Below, piece by piece: positions 3,006 through 64,000 of a DNA stretch of 64,000 nucleotides. A program made the translations under genes and the position numbers. Source of the stretch: Escherichia coli (GTDB lineage: Bacteria; Pseudomonadota; Gammaproteobacteria; Enterobacterales; Enterobacteriaceae); NCBI RefSeq assembly GCF_048403405.1, contig NZ_CP183129.1, one strand, 5' to 3'. The notes below the pieces were generated by a model. The model searched no databases and was not told the DNA's origin. It saw nothing but the letters and a program-made list of their open reading frames with translations. How positions within the stretch are numbered: the stretch's first letter is position 1; every line of letters begins with the position of its first letter.

Positions 3006-5132
<2,127 letters not shown>

Positions 5133-5145
5133 GCCTAAGGGTTAA

Positions 5146-6387
<1,242 letters not shown>

Positions 6388-6411
6388 TTACACGTTAATT
6401 AGTTTCGAATT

Positions 6412-6438
6412 AAAAAGGGCGCTTCGGCGCCCTTTTTG
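6412..6438 (+). terminator. rho-independent terminator after tufA
   Basis: aaaaagggcgcttcggcgcccttttt perfect GC stem followed by T-run. Confidence 0.85.
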
Positions 6439-6569
6439 CTGCCCGTAATTTGAGCTCGAAATATTTAGTCGTAATTTCACTCGCTGAACTATGGCGCAAA
6501 TAAAACTGTGCTATTGTAATCATAACCATTCTCATTTACACTTTGCGCAGAATTTGAACGGGAGCAATC

Positions 6570-6764
6570 ATGTACGTTTGTTTGTGTAATGGTGTAAGTG
6601 ACAAAAAAATTCGCCAGGCAGTCCGTCAGTTTCATCCGCAATCTTTCCAACAATTGCGTAAGTTTATTCCTGTGGGAAATCAATGCGGTAAGTGCATTCG
6701 CGCCGCGCGCGAAGTGATGCAGGACGAGTTGATGCAGATGCCAGAATTTAAAGAGATTGCCTGA
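6570..6764 (+). CDS. bfd: bacterioferritin-associated ferredoxin
   Basis: 64 aa MYVCLCNGVSDKKIRQAV... with Cys ligands for [2Fe-2S]. Confidence 0.93.
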   Translation: MYVCLCNGVSDKKIRQAVRQFHPQSFQQLRKFIPVGNQCGKCIRAAREVMQDELMQMPEFKEIA

Positions 6765-6836
6765 AGCCCACGCTTATTTTTTGACATCCCGCTAGCCCCA
6801 TCTACGCTCTAATAGTGGAAGCGGAGGGACTATAAA

Positions 6837-7313
6837 ATGAAAGGTGATGTTAAAATCATAAATTATCTCAATAAACTATTGGGAAATGAGCTTGTCGCAA
6901 TCAATCAGTATTTTCTCCATGCCCGGATGTTTAAAAACTGGGGCCTGATGCGTCTCAATGACGTCGAATACCATGAATCTATCGATGAGATGAAACACGC
7001 TGATAAATATATCGAGCGTATTTTGTTTTTAGAAGGAATCCCCAACTTACAGGATTTAGGCAAACTGGGGATTGGTGAAGATGTCGAGGAGATGCTGCAA
7101 TCCGACCTGCGATTAGAACTGGAAGGCGCTAAGGATCTCCGTGAGGCTATCGCGTATGCCGACAGCGTTCATGACTATGTTAGCCGTGATATGATGATCG
7201 AGATCCTTGCCGATGAAGAAGGTCATATTGACTGGCTCGAAACTGAGCTGGATCTCATCGGTAAAATCGGTCTACAAAATTACCTGCAATCACAAATAAA
7301 AGTTAAAGATTAA
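6837..7313 (+). CDS. bfr: bacterioferritin
   Basis: 158 aa [37 protein letters not shown]... Confidence 0.96.
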
Positions 7314-7777
7314 CGGCCTGCCAGCAAACTATCCCAGCCTACAACGAAACCCGCAGCCGCCAGAAATGGCCCAAACGGCAGCGGGTTTTTTAATGACTCT
7401 TTTCCTCTCATGAGCAGACCAATAACTACGGCTCCGCAAGCGAATGAGGCAGCAAGGAAAACCAGTCGTGGCAAGAAGGTCCATGTATGCCAGGCACCAA
7501 GGGCGGCGAGAAACTTCACATCACCATAGCCTAATCCTTCTTTATGACGCAGTATGCGATACCCCCAGTAAATGACAGCGAATGTGCCGTAACCAATAAT
7601 CGCCCCCCATAACGCATCGGCTAAACCGTCAGGATTACAAACCTGATAGAACAAAAGACCTGACCAGAGTAACGGGCACGTAAATCTGTCAGGTAACAAG
7701 CCATGCTTTGCATCCCAGAAAAAAAGTAGGGCTGATAAACAAGCGTACAAAATCAGAAAGGGAAGGGTAGCGTCCAT
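7310..7777 (-). CDS. prepilin (type IV leader) peptidase A24 family, apparently N-terminally truncated (GspO/HofD-like remnant)
   Basis: 155 aa with the C-terminal A24 membrane domain motifs ([33 protein letters not shown]) but lacking the N-terminal Cys-rich domain; full-length homologs are ~225 aa. Confidence 0.6.
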
Positions 7778-7939
7778 AAAACATCCTCTGTAATTGGAGT
7801 ATCACCATCGAATAACTCCGGATGCTCAGCAACAGAGAAATCGCTGATTTGTTAACCTGGTTCCGGTGAAAAACGCTATCTTCACAACTTTACAAATTTC
7901 GTGGAATACAGCTCGCAATCTGCGCGTTGCGATTAATTT

Positions 7940-8467
<528 letters not shown>

Positions 8468-8487
8468 TCAGGTCATTGAGCGATTGA

Positions 8488-10883
<2,396 letters not shown>

Positions 10884-10896
10884 TTTTAGAGGATAA

Positions 10897-11178
<282 letters not shown>

Positions 11179-11183
11179 GGTAG

Positions 11184-13112
<1,929 letters not shown>

Positions 13113-13140
13113 TACAGTACGCTCTCTCGATACGAATAAA

Positions 13141-13168
13141 CGGCTCAGAAATGAGCCGTTTATTTTTC
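13141..13168 (+). terminator. S10 operon terminator
   Basis: cggctcagaaatgagccg hairpin followed by tttattttt. Confidence 0.8.
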
Positions 13169-13169
13169 T

Positions 13170-14526
<1,357 letters not shown>

Positions 14527-56457: not shown

Positions 56458-56491
56458 ATTATATGGCCTGGCTCTTTGCCAGGCCATATAC

Positions 56492-57001
56492 TCAAAGCAT
56501 TGTTAACAAGGCGGACGCACCAGCACCAACGAGACTGGCTACCGTACTATTATTTAGTAAATCCTTAAGCAAATTTTTTGCCTGAGGATCTTGTGATTGA
56601 GAAACTTTTTCAACAAGTTCAGTTATGCTGAGATTTACAATAAGATTGTTATGCTCACCGAGTTGAACCTGTGTACCGGATATGTTACCAATGTTAAATG
56701 TATTTTGGCTAGATTGTTTTGGTTTATGTTCATTAGCAGTCAGATTCTCGACTTTTAATGTAAGCATGTGAGGGTGATTAGTACCAACATTGAGTGTACC
56801 TCCTGGTAAAAATGACATATCAATTACTTTTAATATTATTTCCCCCTTCCCTAGTTTTTGAGTGATTTCATCTCCAATATTAATATCTGGTTCTTCAGTA
56901 TAAGGGATTAGCACTTTTTTTTCAGCTGAGTTTCTTTTCCCCTTGTATTCAACTCCTGCGATTGTGAATTTTTCTGGATATGCCATGACGTTAAGATCCA
57001 T
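56492..57001 (-). CDS. hypothetical cargo protein B (shared C-terminal module, hydrophobic C-terminal tail)
   Basis: 169 aa in markedly AT-rich DNA; C-terminus QNTFNIGNISGTQVQLGEHNNLIVNLSITELVEK...AKNLLKDLLNNSTVASLVGAGASALLTML parallels the C-terminus of the upstream gene. Confidence 0.7.
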   Translation of the reverse strand: MDLNVMAYPEKFTIAGVEYKGKRNSAEKKVLIPYTEEPDINIGDEITQKLGKGEIILKVIDMSFLPGGTLNVGTNHPHMLTLKVENLTANEHKPKQSSQNTFNIGNISGTQVQLGEHNNLIVNLSITELVEKVSQSQDPQAKNLLKDLLNNSTVASLVGAGASALLTML

Positions 57002-57030
57002 TATGTTGCTCCTCGTGATCGCTTTTGCGT

Positions 57031-57807
57031 TTAACTAGTAGATTTGAAAGTGTATTTTGTCTGTGTGTTAAGGTTTGATATTAGAGCTTCATAGTTTTCT
57101 TTACTCAGTAAGTTTTTTGAGTAGGCCTTCTTAAGAAGGTTTTTTGAGAGAGTAATAATTTCTTTTTCACCAGTTGATGCAATTTTTGAGAAGAACTCAG
57201 AGAGCTCTTGTATATTAATATTGTTATTTGTACCAAGTTGTACGTATTGGCTATTTACAGTAGCTATGTTGAATATGTTTTGTTTTGGATGCGTTTTTTT
57301 TAGCTTTTCAATTTCAGCATGTTCTATGATTTTTTGAGAGATACTTTCAATATAACCACTAACGTCTTTTTTTTCTGGGAAGGAAAACCCATCACCTCTT
57401 AATATTTTATCTGTTTCGGCCATTTCATAGTAAAGCCTGCGAATCATCACAAGTAATAGTAATTTAGCCTCCTCGATTGACTCCTCTATTGAGAATTGAC
57501 ATTCAATTGCTAACGCGGAGGTCTGCTCTAAAACAATTTCTGAGTTATTTTCAATGTAAGGATTGATAAAACCATTCCAAAAAATTTGAACGGGAGTACC
57601 TTTAAATGCCAAACCTTGATAGCATATTTCTGTTCCATCATATGCAGTAACTTTCATGGGGGGGCCTGCATTGAAAAATCGCCATCTATGAATCAGTTTG
57701 GTTAATCTTTCGTCAATCTCCCGAACTAATTTATAAGTCCTTTTGAACAATGGGGATGGTCGCATCCCAGGAACAGCAAGAATTTCTTTTGTCACTTGAA
57801 TCTCCAT
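57031..57807 (-). CDS. hypothetical cargo protein A (shared C-terminal module)
   Basis: 258 aa uninterrupted ORF in AT-rich DNA (unlikely by chance); 29 bp upstream of protein B on the same strand; C-terminus QNIFNIATVNSQYVQLGTNNNINIQELSEFF...SKNLLKKAY. Confidence 0.7.
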   Translation of the reverse strand: MEIQVTKEILAVPGMRPSPLFKRTYKLVREIDERLTKLIHRWRFFNAGPPMKVTAYDGTEICYQGLAFKGTPVQIFWNGFINPYIENNSEIVLEQTSALAIECQFSIEESIEEAKLLLLVMIRRLYYEMAETDKILRGDGFSFPEKKDVSGYIESISQKIIEHAEIEKLKKTHPKQNIFNIATVNSQYVQLGTNNNINIQELSEFFSKIASTGEKEIITLSKNLLKKAYSKNLLSKENYEALISNLNTQTKYTFKSTS

Positions 57808-58054: not shown

Positions 58055-59224
58055 ATGAAGAAATTAATCGAGCTCCGCCAGCAAAAAAACGCCCTGAAAA
58101 ACCAGATGCGATCCCTGCTGGAAAAAGCCGACAGTGAAAACCGCAGCCTGAACGATGACGAGGGCAAACAGTTTGATGAACTGCGTGCAAAAGCTGATTC
58201 CCTCGATACAGACATTTCCCGCCTCGAGTCTGTGGCTGATGAAGAACGCAGCAAGCCAGGAACGGGCATCCAGAAAGTATCATCTGATGAATTGCGTAAC
58301 TACATCGTAACCGGAGATGTGCGATCTCTGTCCACCAGCACTGACAGCGGCAGGGATGGCGGATATACCGTAATTCCTGAGCTTGATCGCGAAGTCATGC
58401 GCCAGCTACAGGATGACAGTGTTATGCGCGTGATCGCGACCGTGAAGACTGCAAAATCAAATGAGTTTCAGAAACTGGTTTCCACTGGCGGCGCAACTGT
58501 AGGACGAGGCACAGAAGGCAGCGCACGCAGTGAAACCAACACCCCGAAAATTGAACGCGTAACCATCAAGCTGAACCCGATCTACGCCTACCCGAAAACC
58601 ACGCAGGAAATCCTAGATTTTTCAGAGGTGGATATTCTGGGCTGGTTATCCTCCGAAATTGCCGACACGTTCGCCAGCACCGAAGAGGATGATTTTGTTA
58701 ATGGCAACGGTAACGGCAAGCCGAAAGGCTTCATGGCTTACACCCGTGCGGCGACCAGTGACAAAACCCGCGCTTTTGGCACCATTGAAAAAATGGTAGC
58801 GGCAAGTGGAACCGCCATTACAGCGGACGAACTGATCGACATTCTCTACAAGCTGAAAGCGAAATACCGCAAAAATGCCGTCTGGGTGATGAACTCGGGC
58901 ACGGCAGGGACACTACAGAAGCTGAAAAATGAGAACGGCGATTATATCTGGCGCGACAGCCTTAAAGAAGGTGCGCCGGATATGTTGCTTGGTCGTCCTG
59001 TTTACTGCCTGGAGTCCATGCCGGACATCGGCGCAGGAAAAGCACCGCTAGCGGTTGGCGATTTCAGTCGTGGTTATTTCATCGTTGATCATGTAACAGG
59101 GATTCGCACCCGACCGGACAACATTACTGAACCCGGATTCTACAAGGTCCACACGGATAAATATCTGGGCGGTGGTGTGGTGGATTCAAACGCCATCAAA
59201 ATTCTGGAAATGAAAGCTGGCTAG
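58055..59224 (+). CDS. major capsid protein, HK97-fold, with N-terminal scaffolding (delta) domain
   Basis: 389 aa; N-terminal coiled-coil MKKLIELRQQKNALKNQMRSLLEKADSENRSL..., then HK97-family capsid body (GKPKGFMAYT..., LLGRPVYCLESMPD...). Confidence 0.88.
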   Translation: MKKLIELRQQKNALKNQMRSLLEKADSENRSLNDDEGKQFDELRAKADSLDTDISRLESVADEERSKPGTGIQKVSSDELRNYIVTGDVRSLSTSTDSGRDGGYTVIPELDREVMRQLQDDSVMRVIATVKTAKSNEFQKLVSTGGATVGRGTEGSARSETNTPKIERVTIKLNPIYAYPKTTQEILDFSEVDILGWLSSEIADTFASTEEDDFVNGNGNGKPKGFMAYTRAATSDKTRAFGTIEKMVAASGTAITADELIDILYKLKAKYRKNAVWVMNSGTAGTLQKLKNENGDYIWRDSLKEGAPDMLLGRPVYCLESMPDIGAGKAPLAVGDFSRGYFIVDHVTGIRTRPDNITEPGFYKVHTDKYLGGGVVDSNAIKILEMKAG

Positions 59225-59278
59225 TCATGAGTAAGGAGGAGGCTGCGGCCTCCTTTTTCAGCTTTATGGAGTACACCG

Positions 59279-59839
59279 ATGAAAAACACCGATTTTGAAA
59301 TCCGCACATCTGAACTGACCGCCAGCAATAAAAAGCTGGTGGGGTATGCCGTTCGCTGGAACAGCCTTTCAGAAATTATCTGGGACGAATTCCGCGAACA
59401 GTTCACGCCGGGGGCTTTTGCTGACTATCTGGCGGCGGGTAATGATGTGCGCTGCCTGTATGAGCATGACTATACCCAACTGCTGGGGCGCACCAAATCC
59501 GGCACTCTGGTACTGACTGAGGATAACACCGGGTTACGTTTTGAACTGACACCGCCGGATACCCAGCTTGGAAAAGATGTGCTTACGCTGGTGGAGCGTG
59601 GCGACATTACAGGAATGAGCTTTGGTTTTCGCGCATTATGCGAGGAGTGGAGTATCGCGCAAAAACCGTATTTGCGTACCGTAACCGCCGCTGAACTCCG
59701 TGAAATCACAATAACGTCGATGCCTGCTTATCCAGAATCTGGCGTGGAGATTGCCCACCGTTCGTTGTTTGCACAGCACCCTGAATTATGCCCGACAGGA
59801 AATAATCGTCATCGCTGGTCTGAGCTGGCGGGGTTGTGA
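59279..59839 (+). CDS. prohead maturation protease (HK97 family)
   Basis: 186 aa; KLVGYAVRWNS...FREQFTPGAF...LYEHD...LGRT...GTLVLTEDNTGLRFE...GMSFGF pattern typical of HK97-type prohead proteases. Confidence 0.85.
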   Translation: MKNTDFEIRTSELTASNKKLVGYAVRWNSLSEIIWDEFREQFTPGAFADYLAAGNDVRCLYEHDYTQLLGRTKSGTLVLTEDNTGLRFELTPPDTQLGKDVLTLVERGDITGMSFGFRALCEEWSIAQKPYLRTVTAAELREITITSMPAYPESGVEIAHRSLFAQHPELCPTGNNRHRWSELAGL

Positions 59840-59840
59840 T

Positions 59841-61055
59841 ATGTGGTGGCCTTTTAGTCGTAAAAAAAGCGAGCAGCGTAACCTGTCCATTGATGATTTT
59901 CTGGCGCTGTCCGGCGTACCGAATACCGGATCCGGAGAATATGTTTCTGCCGGGACGGCTGAATCATTGCCTGCAGTGATGAATGCGGTTTCTGTCATCG
60001 CTGAGGCGGTGGCCACGATGCCGTGTTATCTGTATCTGGTACGTAATGACAAGGGCAGGGAGGCGCGGGAATGGCTGGACAGTCACCCGGTAGATATTCT
60101 GCTGAATGAGCAGCCTAATTCGTGCCAGACACCTTACCAGTTTAAACGCACAATGATGCGTCACTGCCTGCTGAACGGTAACGCCTATGCGGTTATTGAG
60201 TGGGGGCAGGACGGGCAGCCAAAATCACTTCATCCTTATGCGCCGGGGTGTGTTGTACCGGAACGCACAGGCGCACACAAATACCGCTATACCATCACCG
60301 AACCCTATACAGGAACGGTGCGCACGTATTTACAGGAAGAAGTTCTGCATCTCCGCTATGCCTCGGATGATGGCTTTCTGGGGCGCTCCCCCGTCACGAT
60401 TTGCCGTGAGGCACTTGGGCTTGGCCTTGCTCAACAGCGCCACGGAGCCAGCATTATGAAAGATGGCATGATGGCGGCAGGGATTATCACGTCAGGCGAA
60501 TGGCTGGACGGCGTGAAAGGTAAACAGGCATTGGATGCTCTGGAACGCTACAAGGGGGCGAAAAATGCCGGAAAAACGCCAATCCTTGAAGGGGGCATGG
60601 ATTACAGGCAACTGGGAATGAGTAACCAGGATGCGGAATGGCTGGCCTCCCGTCGCTTCTCCATTGAAGACATCGCCCGCATGTTCAACGTATCGCCTAT
60701 TTTTCTGCAGGAATACAGCAACAGCACCTACAGCAATTTCAGCGAGGCAAGCCGCGCGTTTCTGACCATGACAATGCGCCCGTGGCTGGCGAACTTCGAA
60801 CAGCAAATCAAGGCCGCTTTGCTGGTGGCTTCTCCCGTACCTGGTACCCGTTATCTGGTTGAGTTTGATTCAGCCGATTTATTACGCGCCACACCCACCG
60901 AACGTTATGCCACGTATGAGAAAGGGATTAAGAACGGGATCATGAATCCGAACGAAGCCCGTGAGCGTGAGGGTATGCCGCCGCGTGAAGGTGGTGATGA
61001 GTTCAGCCAGGCATGGAAACAGACTGTGGAAATTAAAGGGAGAAAAGATGAGTGA
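59841..61055 (+). CDS. portal protein (HK97 family)
   Basis: ORF 59751-61055; start at Met 59841 directly after protease stop; ~404 aa with portal-like central region. Confidence 0.8.
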   Translation: MWWPFSRKKSEQRNLSIDDFLALSGVPNTGSGEYVSAGTAESLPAVMNAVSVIAEAVATMPCYLYLVRNDKGREAREWLDSHPVDILLNEQPNSCQTPYQFKRTMMRHCLLNGNAYAVIEWGQDGQPKSLHPYAPGCVVPERTGAHKYRYTITEPYTGTVRTYLQEEVLHLRYASDDGFLGRSPVTICREALGLGLAQQRHGASIMKDGMMAAGIITSGEWLDGVKGKQALDALERYKGAKNAGKTPILEGGMDYRQLGMSNQDAEWLASRRFSIEDIARMFNVSPIFLQEYSNSTYSNFSEASRAFLTMTMRPWLANFEQQIKAALLVASPVPGTRYLVEFDSADLLRATPTERYATYEKGIKNGIMNPNEAREREGMPPREGGDEFSQAWKQTVEIKGRKDE

Positions 61056-61350
61056 AGCCAGAATTACACCTGATGAAGTCAGGGCACATCTTCGACTTGA
61101 TGATGATTTATCCGGTGAAGGCGAACTTCTGAAAATGTATACCGATGCGGCGCTGGAAGCCTGCCAGAAGCATATCGGGAAACGTTTTGAAGACGGGCTG
61201 GAATTTACCCCGGCAATGCGTGTTGGTTGCCTGATGTACATCGCTTTCCTGTACGAGAACCGGGAAGCGGTTTCACCAGTGGAGCACTCGGAACTGCCTA
61301 TGGCTATTTCTGCGCTCTGGTCAGTTTATCGTGACGTAGGGGTGTACTGA
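61048..61350 (+). CDS. head-tail connector (gp6-like) protein
   Basis: ORF 60961-61350; start at MSEARITPDEVRAHLRLDDDLSGEGELLKMYTDAALEACQKHIGKRFE... overlapping portal stop; ~100 aa. Confidence 0.7.
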   Translation: MSEARITPDEVRAHLRLDDDLSGEGELLKMYTDAALEACQKHIGKRFEDGLEFTPAMRVGCLMYIAFLYENREAVSPVEHSELPMAISALWSVYRDVGVY

Positions 61351-61790
61351 TGCCGTGGCAACCATTAAGGCGATGCACTGAGCCTGGCTGTAATAAGCGC
61401 GTGAAGTCCGGCAAGTGTGAAGAGCACAGGCGGGCTGCATGGCGTGCAGAGGATGCCAGACGGGGACACCGCCGCGCGCGCGGGTATTCCCGACAGTGGG
61501 ACAAATACCGCGCCCTGTACCTGAGCAAAAACCCGTTATGCGTGCGTTGTCTGGCTAAGGGGATTTATACGCCAGCTCTTGTGGTGGATCACATCATTCC
61601 CATCAATGGCGGCGGTGATGTTCTCTTCTGGCCTGAGTGGAATCACCAGGCATTGTGCCAGACGTGCCACAACCGTAAGACGACACGGGAAGATCCAGCC
61701 ACGAAAGCAAACCGTAAAGCGGGCATGTATCACGAGCAGGAAGAACGGGCGGCACACCGTAACGACTGGATGTATGGCGATGATGACTGA
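61350..61790 (+). CDS. HNH endonuclease (terminase-associated)
   Basis: 146 aa; Cys-rich with HNH core (VVDHIIPINGGGD...NHQALCQTCHNRKT); sits immediately upstream of terS as in cos-packaging HK97-like phages. Confidence 0.85.
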   Translation: MPWQPLRRCTEPGCNKRVKSGKCEEHRRAAWRAEDARRGHRRARGYSRQWDKYRALYLSKNPLCVRCLAKGIYTPALVVDHIIPINGGGDVLFWPEWNHQALCQTCHNRKTTREDPATKANRKAGMYHEQEERAAHRNDWMYGDDD

Positions 61791-62078
61791 ACAGGAGCAA
61801 ACCAGGCTGATACGTGGACTGATAAGGCAGCGTGACACATGGAAGACACAGGAGACAGAGCACAAAGCCAACAGGACAGGGCGCACAAAACTCACCACAG
61901 CGAAGCGATTAACCGACCGTGACCGCGAGGTCATGGAATGTTTTCGCAATCGCTGGTGAGGCCGTCAGAGGGGGTGGGGGTGGTTTTCAGGACGAAACCG
62001 TCCCTGCCGGACACCGACCGCCCCCTCAAATTTTTGTGCACGGTAATTTTTTTGAAAATAATTGGGCGAAAAAAGAAC

Positions 62079-62435
62079 ATGGCAAGACCACCAAAAGCCC
62101 CCGCTTACCTGGATGAAATCGCGGTCAGGCAGTGGAAGGAAAAATCGCGCCAGCTTTCCGGGCGGGAAGACCTTACCCCCGCCGACTGGAGCAATCTGGA
62201 ACTGTATTGTGTTAACTACTCCATATACCGCAAAGCCGTCGAAGACCTTGCGACGCGCGGGTTCAGCATTGTTAACAGTCAGGGCAGCGAGAGCAGAAAC
62301 CCCGCACTGAGCGCAAAGGCTGACGCAGAAAGAATAATGATCAAAATGGCTTCTTTGCTGGGTTTTGACCCGGTAAGCCGTCGCAGAAATCCACCGGAAA
62401 CAGAGGAAGAGGACGAACTTGACCGCCTGGCATGA
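62079..62435 (+). CDS. terS: terminase small subunit (P27-like)
   Basis: ORF 61938-62435; start at MARPPKAPAYLDEIAVRQWKEKSRQLSGREDLTPADWSNLELYCVNYSIYRKAVEDL... Confidence 0.8.
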   Translation: MARPPKAPAYLDEIAVRQWKEKSRQLSGREDLTPADWSNLELYCVNYSIYRKAVEDLATRGFSIVNSQGSESRNPALSAKADAERIMIKMASLLGFDPVSRRRNPPETEEEDELDRLA

Positions 62436-64000
62436 GTACGCAGAAGGCGTAAAAAACGGCAAAATTACGGCCTGTAAACGACTGAAACAGGCCGTTAAAC
62501 GGTATTTTTCTGACCTTGAAAACTCCCTTTACACGTTCGATCCGGAGGTCGTGGAGCGGTTTATTGCCTTTTCCCGGGTGTGTCCGCACGTAAAAGGCGC
62601 AATGCGCGGTAGTCCCATTGAACTGGAGCCGTGGCAGCAGTTCGCCTTTGCCTGCATCCTGGGCTTTAAGGTTAAGGCCACCGGACGGCGCAAATACACC
62701 AGCGCATTCATTGAAGTACCGCGAAAAAATGCCAAATCCACGGTCGCCGCTATCCTGGCTAACTGGTTTCTGGTTATGGAAAACGGGCAGCAGGATATTT
62801 ACACCGCCGCCGTGAGTCGTGATCAGGCGCGGATCGTGTTTGATGATGCGCGTCAGATGTGCCTTTTATCCCGACCGTTACGAAAGCGGGTAAATATTCA
62901 GGCACACAAGGTGATACACCCGAAAACTAACAGCCTGTTAAAGCCACTGGCAGCAAAAGCGGCAACCATTGAAGGTACAAATCCGAGTCTTGCCATTGTG
63001 GATGAATATCACCTGCACCCTGACAACGGGGTTTATTCCGCACTTGAGCTGGGGATGGGGGCGCGTCCGGAGGGGCTGTTATTTGCCATCACCACATCGG
63101 GGAGCAACGTTGTTTCAGCCTGTAAACAACACTATGACTATTGCTGTCAGATACTGGATGGTGAAGAGATGAACGAATCCATGTTCGTTCTGATTTACGA
63201 GCTGGATGATGAAAGCGAGGTTGACGATCCGGCCATGTGGATAAAGGCGAATCCAAATATCGATGTTTCCGTCGATCGTGAAAAACTGGCCTCAACCATC
63301 CAGAAAGCGCGGGGTATTCCGTCGCAGTGGGTGGAAATGCTCACCAAGCGATTCAATATCTGGTGTCAGGGGGCTACGCCGTGGATGGGTAACGGTGCAT
63401 GGGCGGAGTGCGCCGGAACGTTCGCGGAGGCGGATTTATACGGGCAGGAGTGCTACGCGGGACTGGACTTATCATCAACCAGCGATATTTCCAGCGTGTG
63501 CTATGCCTTTCCGGTCGGTAAAAAGATTATGCTGGTTTCCCGTCACTATCTGCCGGAATTTCAGCTACAGAACCCCGCCAATAAAAACCGCGCCATCTAT
63601 CGCCAGTGGGTAAAGGCGGGCTGGATACGCACAACACCGGGTGACTGCATTGATTATGACCGTATCCGTGATGACATCATGGCGGATGCAGAGAATTTCA
63701 ATATCAGGCTGGTGGGCTTCGATACATGGAACGCCACGCACCTGAGGACGCAGCTACAGGGGGCAGGATTTGAGGTGGAGCCGTTCCCGCAAACATACCT
63801 TCGTTTCAGTCCGGCGGCGAAATCGTTCGAAGTTTTTGTTAACCGGAAGGTGATTGTGCATCGTGGTGATCCGGTGCTGGCCTGGTCAATGAGTAATGTT
63901 GTGATGCAGAGTGACGCGAACGCCAATATCAAGCCGAACAAGAAAAAATCATCCAACAAGATAGACCCGAGCGTTGCGGCGCTGATGGCGTTTGGCACAT
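62419..64000 (+). CDS. terL: terminase large subunit (partial; runs off window end)
   Basis: Open frame from a TTG at 62419 to the window end with no stop (hence absent from the ORF track); hand translation TAWHEYAEGVKNGKITACKRLKQAVKRYFSDL...AILANWFLVMENGQQDIYTAAVSRDQAR...LAIVDEYHLHPDNG shows terminase ATPase features. Confidence 0.75.
   Translation, partial: MTAWHEYAEGVKNGKITACKRLKQAVKRYFSDLENSLYTFDPEVVERFIAFSRVCPHVKGAMRGSPIELEPWQQFAFACILGFKVKATGRRKYTSAFIEVPRKNAKSTVAAILANWFLVMENGQQDIYTAAVSRDQARIVFDDARQMCLLSRPLRKRVNIQAHKVIHPKTNSLLKPLAAKAATIEGTNPSLAIVDEYHLHPDNGVYSALELGMGARPEGLLFAITTSGSNVVSACKQHYDYCCQILDGEEMNESMFVLIYELDDESEVDDPAMWIKANPNIDVSVDREKLASTIQKARGIPSQWVEMLTKRFNIWCQGATPWMGNGAWAECAGTFAEADLYGQECYAGLDLSSTSDISSVCYAFPVGKKIMLVSRHYLPEFQLQNPANKNRAIYRQWVKAGWIRTTPGDCIDYDRIRDDIMADAENFNIRLVGFDTWNATHLRTQLQGAGFEVEPFPQTYLRFSPAAKSFEVFVNRKVIVHRGDPVLAWSMSNVVMQSDANANIKPNKKKSSNKIDPSVAALMAFGT

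What the first reader, a model, noticed from the sequence alone, without database searches (positions are those of the whole stretch)
58055..62435. Morphogenesis gene order is the reverse of the usual HK97-like layout
The order here is major capsid, protease, portal, connector, HNH, terS, terL, whereas HK97-like phages typically run terS-terL-portal-protease-capsid. With terL at the distal end this suggests a rearranged or independently assembled packaging module, consistent with satellite-specific biology.
Basis: partly seen in the sequence, partly recalled or inferred. Interest (0 to 1): 0.45.

Follow-up and report, generated by a model that had tools for sequence, protein, structure and literature searches.

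The report
Known gene order of cf-PICI satellite
The capsid-first, terminase-last gene order is real, but it is the published hallmark layout of capsid-forming phage satellites (cf-PICIs) of enterobacteria, and this window simply holds one more such island, so the finding is correct but ordinary.

Summary
All are on the + strand. terL lies outside the stated coordinates (62419 onward) and is cut by the window end.

The block is the right arm of a 15.3-kb island between yhdJ and fis. The island is bounded by a perfect 80-nt direct repeat. It carries integrase, AlpA, a D5-type primase and origin iterons, and no tail or lysis genes.

It is colinear with the prototype cf-PICI EcCIEDL933 (56-93% aa identity). 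The cf-PICI paper already states this exact order for proteobacterial cf-PICIs and contrasts it with the helper phage. All 80 IMG/VR relatives and three informative relatives at 40-45% capsid identity keep the order. Every true phage I checked is canonical.

"Reverse" is imprecise. HNH-terS-terL keeps the HK97 arrangement across a conserved cos-like site (61960-62078). In packaged DNA terS-terL would therefore sit at the left end. Only the head-gene block is truly re-ordered and relocated.

Verdict: interpretation supported, already known, low interest.

One side observation: this element lacks the head-closure (Hc1) gene that EcCIEDL933 carries.

The parts
49801..49880 (.). attL: left copy of a perfect 80-nt direct repeat. 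The right copy would lie about 15,285 bp downstream, at about 65086-65165, outside the window, overlapping the 3' end of fis.
   Evidence: Repeat D1 in the complete homologous locus L002 (2802-2881 and 18087-18166). The same 80-mer was found in the window at 49801.
50056..51279 (+). [quoted passage not shown]
   Evidence: Pfam Arm-DNA-bind_3, Phage_int_M and Phage_integrase. RefSeq annotation.
52103..52324 (+). AlpA-family regulator.
   Evidence: Pfam Phage_AlpA, E = 1.4e-14.
53995..55812 (+). Primase/replicase (D5_N, DUF5906, Pox_D5).
55806..56060 (.). Probable replication origin: at least 9 copies of the iteron ACTGTTCACC in both orientations, just downstream of the primase gene.
   Evidence: Function is inferred from the usual PICI layout.
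58055..59224 (+). HK97-fold major capsid protein (389 aa), first gene of the morphogenesis/packaging block.
   Evidence: Pfam Phage_capsid, E = 5e-71. 63% identical to the EcCIEDL933 capsid.
59279..59839 (+). Prohead serine protease.
   Evidence: Pfam Peptidase_S78, E = 7e-46. 62% identical to EcCIEDL933.
59841..61055 (+). Portal protein (404 aa from the annotated ATG).
   Evidence: Pfam Phage_portal, E = 2e-92. 81% identical to EcCIEDL933.
61048..61350 (+). Head-tail adaptor of the Ad1 / HK97 gp6 type (100 aa). It overlaps the portal stop codon, and no head-closure (Hc1) gene lies between them.
   Evidence: Pfam Phage_connect_1. PHROG 40 'head-tail adaptor Ad1', E = 2e-28. No tblastn match to EcCIEDL933 Hc1 anywhere in the window.
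61350..61790 (+). HNH endonuclease, the packaging accessory of HK97-type terminases.
   Evidence: Pfam HNH. PHROG 144. 84% identical to EcCIEDL933.
61774..61959 (+). Conserved 61-aa ORF of unknown function, the homologue of EcCIEDL933 gene 1792.
   Evidence: 75% identical to EcCIEDL933. PHROG 3173. The 1792 mutant was severely impaired in transfer.
61960..62078 (.). Probable cos region. It contains a conserved G-run/C-run dyad (61968-61977 and 62018-62027), the 23-nt motif GGGGTGGGGGTGGTTTTCAGGAC (61971-61993) and an A/T-rich block upstream of terS.
   Evidence: The motif is present in 76 of 80 IMG/VR relatives, EcCIEDL933 and vB_KppS-Ant. The block is conserved as far as Pasteurella Pmp8. The ends of two linear records fall inside it. 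The cleavage site itself was not determined.
62079..62435 (+). Small terminase, P27 family (118 aa).
   Evidence: Pfam Terminase_4. 88% identical to EcCIEDL933.
62419..64000 (+). Large terminase. It is cut by the window end, and the full gene ends at about 64080.
   Evidence: Pfam TerL_ATPase + TerL_nuclease on the window part and on the full gene from L001. 93% identical to EcCIEDL933.

Best explanation
The block is the late (capsid-formation and DNA-packaging) operon of a capsid-forming phage-inducible chromosomal island (cf-PICI) of the proteobacterial clade, integrated at the 3' end of fis. By homology to EcCIEDL933, a helper phage induces the island, which then excises and replicates from its own origin. 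It transcribes capsid, protease, portal and adaptor, which would build small T=4 HK97-fold heads. It also transcribes HNH, TerS and TerL, which would cut and package unit-length island DNA at a cos site between the 61-aa ORF and terS. The filled heads would then be joined to tails made by a helper phage. The capsid-protease-portal-connector-HNH-terS-terL order is the conserved, clade-defining layout of these satellites. Because cos lies inside the operon, the packaged DNA would read terS-terL ... capsid-protease-portal-adaptor-HNH. Shown here: gene identities, order, island borders, colinearity with the prototype, conservation of the order, and conservation of the cos-like block. Inferred, not shown for this element: induction, T=4 heads, the cos cleavage site and tail hijacking.
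For: Gene content is supported by Pfam and PHROGs. The island borders are an 80-nt perfect direct repeat 15,285 bp apart in a near-identical complete copy of the island (L002; the right copy falls outside the window), close to the 15.4 kb given for EcCIEDL933. No element ORF that was scanned matched a tail or lysis family, and no further gene is annotated in the island. The block is colinear with EcCIEDL933 at 56-93% aa identity for nine genes. [quoted passage not shown] The cfPICI core gene organisation is described as 'very conserved'. The same order holds in 80 of 80 IMG/VR relatives, in Pmp8, in a 16.5-kb Logan contig and in relatives at 40-45% capsid identity. For cos: the non-coding block is conserved, and the linear record vB_KppS-Ant starts at terS and ends after HNH and the small ORF. 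A 15.5-kb metagenome contig ends 21 nt after the motif and, by arithmetic, starts just upstream of terS. Cohesive cos ends are reported for cf-PICI DNA.
Against: There are no experimental data for this particular element. It lacks the head-closure (Hc1) gene, and in EcCIEDL933 every packaging gene tested, that one included, was required for transfer. It might therefore be defective or depend on the helper for that part. The cos position is inferred from conservation and record ends, and the two record ends do not coincide exactly. vB_KppS-Ant lacks about 60 nt of the block, so these ends may be assembly artefacts.
Confidence: 0.93

Rival explanations
1. The order only looks unusual because an integrated element is a circular permutation of the virion map. 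After excision and cutting at cos it would be an ordinary HK97 layout.
For: This is partly true. HNH-(cos)-terS-terL matches HK97, where HNH is the last gene and terS-terL the first. The linear record vB_KppS-Ant begins with terS-terL.
Against: The cyclic order on one strand is terL > capsid > protease > portal here, and terL > portal > protease > capsid in HK97 and ST64B. No rotation converts one into the other. In addition, the head genes are separated from terL by the whole integration, regulation and replication region.
Confidence: 0.05
2. It is a decayed HK97-like prophage that lost its tail, lysis and early genes and suffered rearrangements, and is not a functional satellite.
For: The island has no tail or lysis genes and no Hc1 gene. 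In strain MS 69-1 the left arm, with the integrase, is deleted.
Against: All ORFs are intact. The att repeats are perfect. The PICI-type int-alpA-primase-ori arm is present. The same 15-17 kb unit recurs in hundreds of genomes and as separate contigs of that size. The packaging block is joined to at least four integrase types, which implies continued mobility. It is colinear with an element shown to be a functional satellite.
Confidence: 0.04
3. It is a small autonomous phage, as relatives have been deposited (for example 'Escherichia phage vB_KppS-Ant' and 'Pasteurella phage Pmp8').
For: Such records exist in the phage collection, and some relatives carry a tape-measure-like ORF after terL.
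Against: The window element and the relatives examined contain no tail tube, baseplate, fibre, holin or endolysin genes. A 15-kb genome with heads only cannot form infectious particles by itself. EcCIEDL933 needs helper tails.
Confidence: 0.02

Closest known systems
EcCIEDL933, prototype capsid-forming PICI of E. coli O157:H7 (Alqurainy et al., bioRxiv 10.1101/2022.09.08.507074)
   Same: Both have an int-alpA-Icd-DUF4222-primase left arm and the same order capsid, protease, portal, connector, HNH, small ORF, terS (P27), terL, 93-aa ORF. Amino-acid identities are 63, 62, 81, 56, 84, 75, 88, 93 and 75%. Sizes are similar (15.3 vs 15.4 kb). The cos-like block is conserved.
   Different: The integration site differs (fis 3' end here; next to roxA/pepT on one side and phoQ on the other there). 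The integrase is 54% identical and the replicase differs (D5-type vs DUF927). Two different low-GC accessory genes lie upstream of the capsid gene. The window element has no head-closure (Hc1) gene between portal and adaptor.
vB_KppS-Ant (LR881103) and Pasteurella phage Pmp8 (OR544139), deposited as phages
   Same: They have the same gene order and satellite size (16.5 and 15.3 kb). Capsid identity is 76% and 61%, terL 83% and 70%.
   Different: Both carry Hc1. vB_KppS-Ant has a 765-aa ORF after terL. Both records are written in a different permutation or strand.
Phage HK97 and relatives (HK106, HK022, ST64B): HNH-dependent cos packaging and HK97-fold heads
   Same: The protein families are the same (capsid, S78 protease, portal, gp6 adaptor, HNH, terS, terL). 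HNH lies immediately upstream of cos and terS-terL immediately downstream.
   Different: The phage order is terS-terL-portal-protease-capsid-Ad1-Hc1-tail. Identities are low (HK97: portal 27%, HNH 36%, terL 28%, capsid not detected; ST64B: capsid 37%, terL 31%). The phage genomes are about 40 kb and carry tail, lysis and lysogeny modules.
cf-PICIs of Firmicutes (two groups, same paper)
   Same: They are satellites that encode their own heads and terminase.
   Different: According to the paper, one group starts the operon with portal-protease-capsid and the other with HNH-terS-terL. The capsid-first order is therefore specific to the proteobacterial clade.
Classical Gram-negative PICIs (EcCICFT073 type)
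   Same: They share the int-alpA-primase arm, and some carry a capsid homologue and terS. Several capsid relatives at 37-42% identity sit in such islands.
   Different: They have no portal, adaptor or terL and rely on helper heads.

Membership tests
cf-PICI (capsid-forming PICI, proteobacterial clade) | Island of about 10-18 kb with defined ends | tested here: met
   Perfect 80-nt direct repeats 15,285 bp apart. The size criterion is quoted.
cf-PICI (capsid-forming PICI, proteobacterial clade) | Integrase, regulation module (AlpA) and replication module | tested here: met
   Integrase and D5-type primase, Phage_AlpA, iterons downstream of the primase gene.
cf-PICI (capsid-forming PICI, proteobacterial clade) | Own capsid, prohead protease and portal genes | tested here: met
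   Pfam hits well above the curated cut-offs.
cf-PICI (capsid-forming PICI, proteobacterial clade) | [quoted passage not shown] | tested here: not met
   Only the gp6/Ad1-type gene is present. No homologue of the EcCIEDL933 Hc1-type gene is present anywhere in the window. SatelliteFinder accepts cfPICIs with 9 or 10 of 11 core components as Types C and B, so this does not exclude membership by that definition.
cf-PICI (capsid-forming PICI, proteobacterial clade) | HNH, terS and terL | tested here: met
   terL is cut by the window end but complete in near-identical DNA (L001; 1 mismatch in the 8001 bases shared with the window).
cf-PICI (capsid-forming PICI, proteobacterial clade) | Conserved order capsid-protease-portal-connectors, then hnh-terS-terL | tested here: met
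   Window map against the published statement and the EcCIEDL933 map.
cf-PICI (capsid-forming PICI, proteobacterial clade) | Packaging proteins 50-90% similar to EcCIEDL933 | tested here: met
   56-93% aa identity. The criterion is quoted.
cf-PICI (capsid-forming PICI, proteobacterial clade) | No lytic genes and no complete tail module | tested here: met
   No tail, holin or lysin family hit for any element ORF scanned, and nothing else is annotated in the island.
cf-PICI (capsid-forming PICI, proteobacterial clade) | Makes its own small capsids, packages only its own DNA, and needs helper tails for transfer | not testable with these tools
   Shown for EcCIEDL933 only. Inferred here by homology.
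Complete HK97-like temperate phage | Tail and lysis modules, order terS-terL-portal-protease-capsid, genome of about 40 kb | tested here: not met
   A 15.3-kb element with no tail or lysis genes and a different order.
Helper-embedded PICI (integrated in a prophage late gene) | att site inside a prophage late gene | tested here: not met
   The window element sits between yhdJ and fis. Close relatives L020, L032 and L035 do split a prophage terL.

The most novel reading that the evidence does not exclude
The order itself is known, but this island belongs to an Ad1-only (Hc1-less) neck variant. The variant carries its own type of adaptor gene. It occurs in roughly a quarter of E. coli genomes that have this capsid block, and it is joined to at least four integrase types. 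If functional, such cf-PICIs would either take the head-closure protein as well as the tail from the helper, or dock tails directly on Ad1. That would be a different division of labour from the one described for EcCIEDL933, where the adaptor and connector genes were each needed for transfer.
Probability: 0.25. Interest if true: 0.4.

Novelty: already known. Interest (0 to 1): 0.1.

Why it matters
The result confirms that a reader working from raw sequence alone can recognise a cf-PICI by its gene order. It gives one more annotated example, integrated at the 3' end of fis. It adds nothing to what is published about why the order differs from HK97.

Two practical points follow. First, terL 'at the far end' should not be read as a rearrangement, because cos lies inside the operon. 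Second, several database 'phages' (vB_KppS-Ant, Pmp8, part of P12620-1) are in fact cf-PICIs.

The Hc1-less neck variant is the only item that might repay experimental work. Published work indicates that the adaptor and connector proteins decide which phage tails, and therefore which hosts, a cf-PICI can use.

Tried and rejected
(1) Klebsiella phage P12620-1 (106 kb) looked like a large phage carrying the same order. Its last 15 kb reads terL > int > primase > capsid > protease > portal and then the record ends. The nearby baseplate genes are on the other strand, and the record has 67 unnamed features. I read it as a chimeric assembly that contains a permuted cf-PICI, not as a counter-example.

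(2) I tested whether the missing Hc1 gene is a simple deletion. It is not. The portal 3' end and the adaptor N-terminus also differ from Hc1-containing relatives with 99% identical capsids, and adaptor type tracks Hc1 presence. This is a cassette exchange.

(3) The search for homologous proteins listed only hits of 68% identity or more, so it said nothing about the zone between satellites and phages. I used the representative search and contig look-ups instead. Three of the 11 look-ups gave contigs too short to show order or context (L101, L103, L106).

(4) PADLOC and Pfam gave nothing for the two low-GC accessory ORFs, and only an unnamed PHROG matched.

(5) The promoter and terminator scans were at or near shuffled expectation and were not used.

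(6) The exact cos cleavage site could not be fixed, because the two informative record ends differ by about 20 nt and one record lacks about 60 nt of the block.

(7) I did not survey all 598 phage records that have a capsid match. Only records appearing in two searches, or fetched individually, were checked.
Full report
**What is in the sequence**

The ORF list and translations, Pfam and PHROGs give a co-directional + strand block:
- major capsid protein, 58055-59224
- S78 prohead protease, 59279-59839
- portal, 59841-61055
- gp6/Ad1-type head-tail adaptor, 61048-61350
- HNH endonuclease, 61350-61790
- a conserved 61-aa ORF, 61774-61959
- P27-family small terminase, 62079-62435
- large terminase, from 62419

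terL runs off the window end (its end would be at about 64080). That is why the ORF tool did not list it and why it falls outside the finding's coordinates. I verified it on the window part and on the complete gene in near-identical DNA of strain MS 69-1 (one mismatch in 8001 bases).

Its terS ORF starts too early: the homologues start at the ATG at 62079, and the extra 5' part covers a conserved non-coding block.

**Context**

The window is E. coli chromosome (acrF-acrE-acrS-yhdU-yhdJ on the left). In a complete homologous locus, an 80-nt perfect direct repeat brackets 15,285 bp between yhdJ and fis. The left copy is at window 49801-49880. The right copy, which overlaps the 3' end of fis, lies beyond the window.

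Inside the island are:
- a tyrosine integrase (50056-51279)
- an AlpA regulator (52103-52324)
- Icd-like and DUF4222 genes
- a D5-type primase (53995-55812)
- a cluster of ACTGTTCACC iterons just after the primase gene (55806-56060)
- two low-GC minus-strand ORFs of unknown function (56492-57795)
- the head/packaging block

No element ORF that was scanned matches a tail, holin or lysin family, and nothing else is annotated in the island.

**Identity of the element**

The island is colinear with EcCIEDL933, the prototype capsid-forming PICI, which I located in the EDL933 chromosome. Amino-acid identities are capsid 63%, protease 62%, portal 81%, adaptor 56%, HNH 84%, small ORF 75%, terS 88%, terL 93%, and the 93-aa ORF after terL 75%.

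The paper that defined cf-PICIs says three relevant things. EcCIEDL933's packaging module has a 'different genetic organisation' from helper phage HK106. [quoted passage not shown] The Firmicutes cf-PICIs use two other orders.

The same paper shows that mutating each packaging gene abolishes island transfer but not phage transfer, and that only helper tails are needed. A later preprint lists the same gene series among the recognition criteria and reports the T=4 HK97-fold capsid. SatelliteFinder describes the cfPICI core organisation as very conserved.

The finding is therefore a correct recognition of a published hallmark.

**Is the order conserved, and does any complete phage share it?**

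All 80 IMG/VR loci retrieved with the capsid keep capsid > protease > portal > (Hc1) > adaptor > HNH > (small ORF) > terS > terL. These loci are 76-100% identical in capsid and mostly sit on 12-18 kb contigs.

In the phage collection, the only records with capsid or terL identity of 60% or more are:
- satellite-sized records: vB_KppS-Ant 16.5 kb, Pmp8 15.3 kb, Pmp7 10.7 kb
- a 3.8-kb fragment
- the 106-kb P12620-1

Where both genes could be placed, all show the cf-PICI order. P12620-1 ends in a permuted cf-PICI (terL > int > primase > capsid > protease > portal), with baseplate genes on the other strand, so I treat it as a chimeric assembly.

The next-best capsid and terL matches, all true phages, are at most 37% identical. 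Every true phage I could place is canonical:
- HK97 and ST64B
- Streptococcus YS199, Javan255 and Javan181, where portal precedes capsid
- Vibrio K237, K234 and K232, where terL precedes capsid
- the prophage next to L020

To probe the gap between 37% and 60%, I ran a search against 50%-identity cluster representatives and looked up 11 capsid relatives at 37-45% identity. Three look-ups gave contigs too short to show order or context. The other eight gave:
- Three contexts with capsid > protease > portal and no tail genes. One also has HNH-terS but no terL. One has Ad1-Hc1-terS-terL.
- Four int/primase islands that carry only a capsid homologue, one of them with terS as well.
- One small int/primase/terS element with protease > capsid.

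None was a tailed phage. This was a sample and not an exhaustive survey.

**How 'reverse' is it?**

HK97 reads terS-terL-portal-protease-capsid-Ad1-Hc1-tail ... HNH, with cos between HNH (right end) and terS (left end). In the island, HNH-(small ORF)-terS-terL has the same relative order.

The 119-nt gap before terS holds a G-run/C-run dyad, the motif GGGGTGGGGGTGGTTTTCAGGAC and an A/T-rich block. The motif is found in 76 of 80 relatives, EcCIEDL933 and vB_KppS-Ant. The whole block is recognisable even in Pasteurella Pmp8, whose capsid is only 61% identical. HK97's right end has a comparable G-run and a GACCGCCGCC stretch.

Three observations point to cos lying here:
- The linear record vB_KppS-Ant begins 22 nt before terS and ends at the motif.
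- A 15.5-kb metagenome contig ends 21 nt after the motif and by arithmetic begins about 60 nt before terS.
- cf-PICI DNA is reported to have cohesive cos ends.

I infer that cos lies at 61960-62078. The packaged DNA would then read terS-terL-(variable slot)-att-int-...-primase-...-capsid-protease-portal-adaptor-HNH. terL at the 'distal end' is thus an effect of the integrated permutation.

What cannot be explained by permutation is the head block. On one strand the cyclic order is terL > capsid > protease > portal, against terL > portal > protease > capsid in phages. The head genes are also separated from terL by the whole non-structural region. In EcCIEDL933 and Pmp8 the two neck genes are swapped as well (Hc1 then Ad1, against Ad1 then Hc1 in HK97).

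Order reversal without strand inversion needs several independent events. This fits the low identity to phages and the published conclusion that cf-PICI capsid and terL clades are separate from phage clades.

**Mechanism**

Shown by sequence:
- an intact island with perfect att repeats
- an origin-like iteron array
- a tight co-directional operon (overlaps or gaps of at most 120 nt)
- a conserved cis block inside that operon

Inferred from EcCIEDL933:
- helper-triggered excision and replication
- assembly of T=4 heads from the island's capsid, protease and portal
- HNH/TerS/TerL-dependent cos packaging of the 15.3-kb unit
- release of tail-less heads that acquire helper tails through the neck proteins

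**Side observations**

*Neck cassette.* The island has no Hc1 (head-closure) gene. The portal and adaptor genes overlap, and no Hc1 homologue exists in the window. This is not a simple deletion. The adaptor is of a distinct type (56-62% identical to those of Hc1-containing islands), and adaptor type tracks Hc1 presence even among islands with capsids 97% or more identical. [quoted passage not shown]

Ad1-only variants are common and look mobile:
- They make up roughly a quarter of the E. coli genomes with this block. This is inferred from the evenly spaced rows and identity bands.
- They occur with at least four integrase types.
- They occur in the clades with 71-77% capsid identity.

Whether they borrow head closure from the helper is untested.

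*Relatives and records.*
- L020, L032 and L035 are cf-PICIs inserted into the terL gene of an HK97-like prophage. The two gene orders lie side by side there. A terminase site is among those reported for helper-embedded PICIs.
- Eight of 80 relatives carry a 1050-1135-aa tape-measure-like ORF directly after terL. Five more, plus vB_KppS-Ant, carry an unrelated 765-aa ORF in that slot.
- In strain MS 69-1 the island's left arm and the neighbouring yhdJ-acrS-5'acrE region are deleted.

**Verdict**

The feature is already known, so interest is low.

Noticed in passing
window 61048-61350 (junction with portal at 61048-61055): The island has only an Ad1-type adaptor and no head-closure (Hc1) gene, unlike EcCIEDL933, vB_KppS-Ant and Pmp8. 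The adaptor type co-varies with Hc1 presence, which indicates a cassette exchange and not a deletion. Ad1-only variants are frequent and are linked to at least four integrase types.
   Followed up: partly
window 56492-57001 and 57031-57795 (minus strand): Two low-GC (about 36%) ORFs of 169 and 254 aa lie between the replication and capsid modules. They share a C-terminal region (PHROG 5789, unknown function) and have no Pfam or PADLOC hit. They are followed by a strong bidirectional terminator-like hairpin at 56460-56490. They may be accessory or defence cargo.
   Followed up: partly
window 55806-56060: At least nine ACTGTTCACC iterons in both orientations lie directly downstream of the primase gene. 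This is probably the island's replication origin.
   Followed up: partly
window 61960-62078: A non-coding block is conserved across relatives with only 61-77% identical capsids. It comprises a G-run/C-run dyad, the motif GGGGTGGGGGTGGTTTTCAGGAC, and CAAATTTTT..GCACGG..TTTTTTTGAAAATAA. It is a probable cos site, and the ends of two linear records fall inside it.
   Followed up: partly
L020, L032 and L035 (for example L032:273-2696 and L020:16550-20867): A cf-PICI with a 98% identical capsid but a different integrase is inserted into the terL gene of an HK97-like prophage, at about residue 307-311 as aligned to the window TerL. The phage's portal-protease-capsid-Ad1-Hc1 genes follow in canonical order right after the satellite's terL.
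   Followed up: partly
L037:13574-16981 (also L039, L044, L047, L049, L052, L084); L003:2036-4333 (also L040, L043, L048, L051, L082): The slot after terL is variable. Eight of 80 relatives carry a 1050-1135-aa ORF there with tape-measure domains (TMP_3, Phage_HK97_TLTM, Tape_meas_lam_C). Others carry an unrelated 765-aa ORF with no Pfam hit. The window element has only a 93-aa ORF there. I did not establish whether the tape-measure ORF lies inside the island.
   Followed up: partly
L001 (E. coli MS 69-1), locus 7139-8325: In this strain the island's integrase and the next gene are deleted, together with yhdJ, yhdU, acrS and the 5' end of acrE. This leaves an immobile remnant with an intact packaging block.
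   Followed up: no
phage collection records LR881103, OR544139, OR544138, PQ569648: Records deposited as phages are cf-PICIs (vB_KppS-Ant, Pmp8, probably Pmp7) or contain one. The last 15 kb of the 106-kb P12620-1 record is a permuted cf-PICI joined to unrelated phage DNA.
   Followed up: partly
L094 (JGI 3300060879), 4919-13817: A relative at 45% capsid identity has int, HTH, capsid, protease, portal, HNH and terS in the same order. It has no adaptor and no terL, so it is a reduced version of the module.
   Followed up: no
window 52333-53379 and 61938-62078: The 348-aa ORF at 52333-53379 is probably spurious, because it overlaps the annotated YlcI-family gene on the other strand and the Icd-like gene. 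The long form of the terS ORF (start 61938) is also unlikely, because it runs through the conserved non-coding block.
   Followed up: partly
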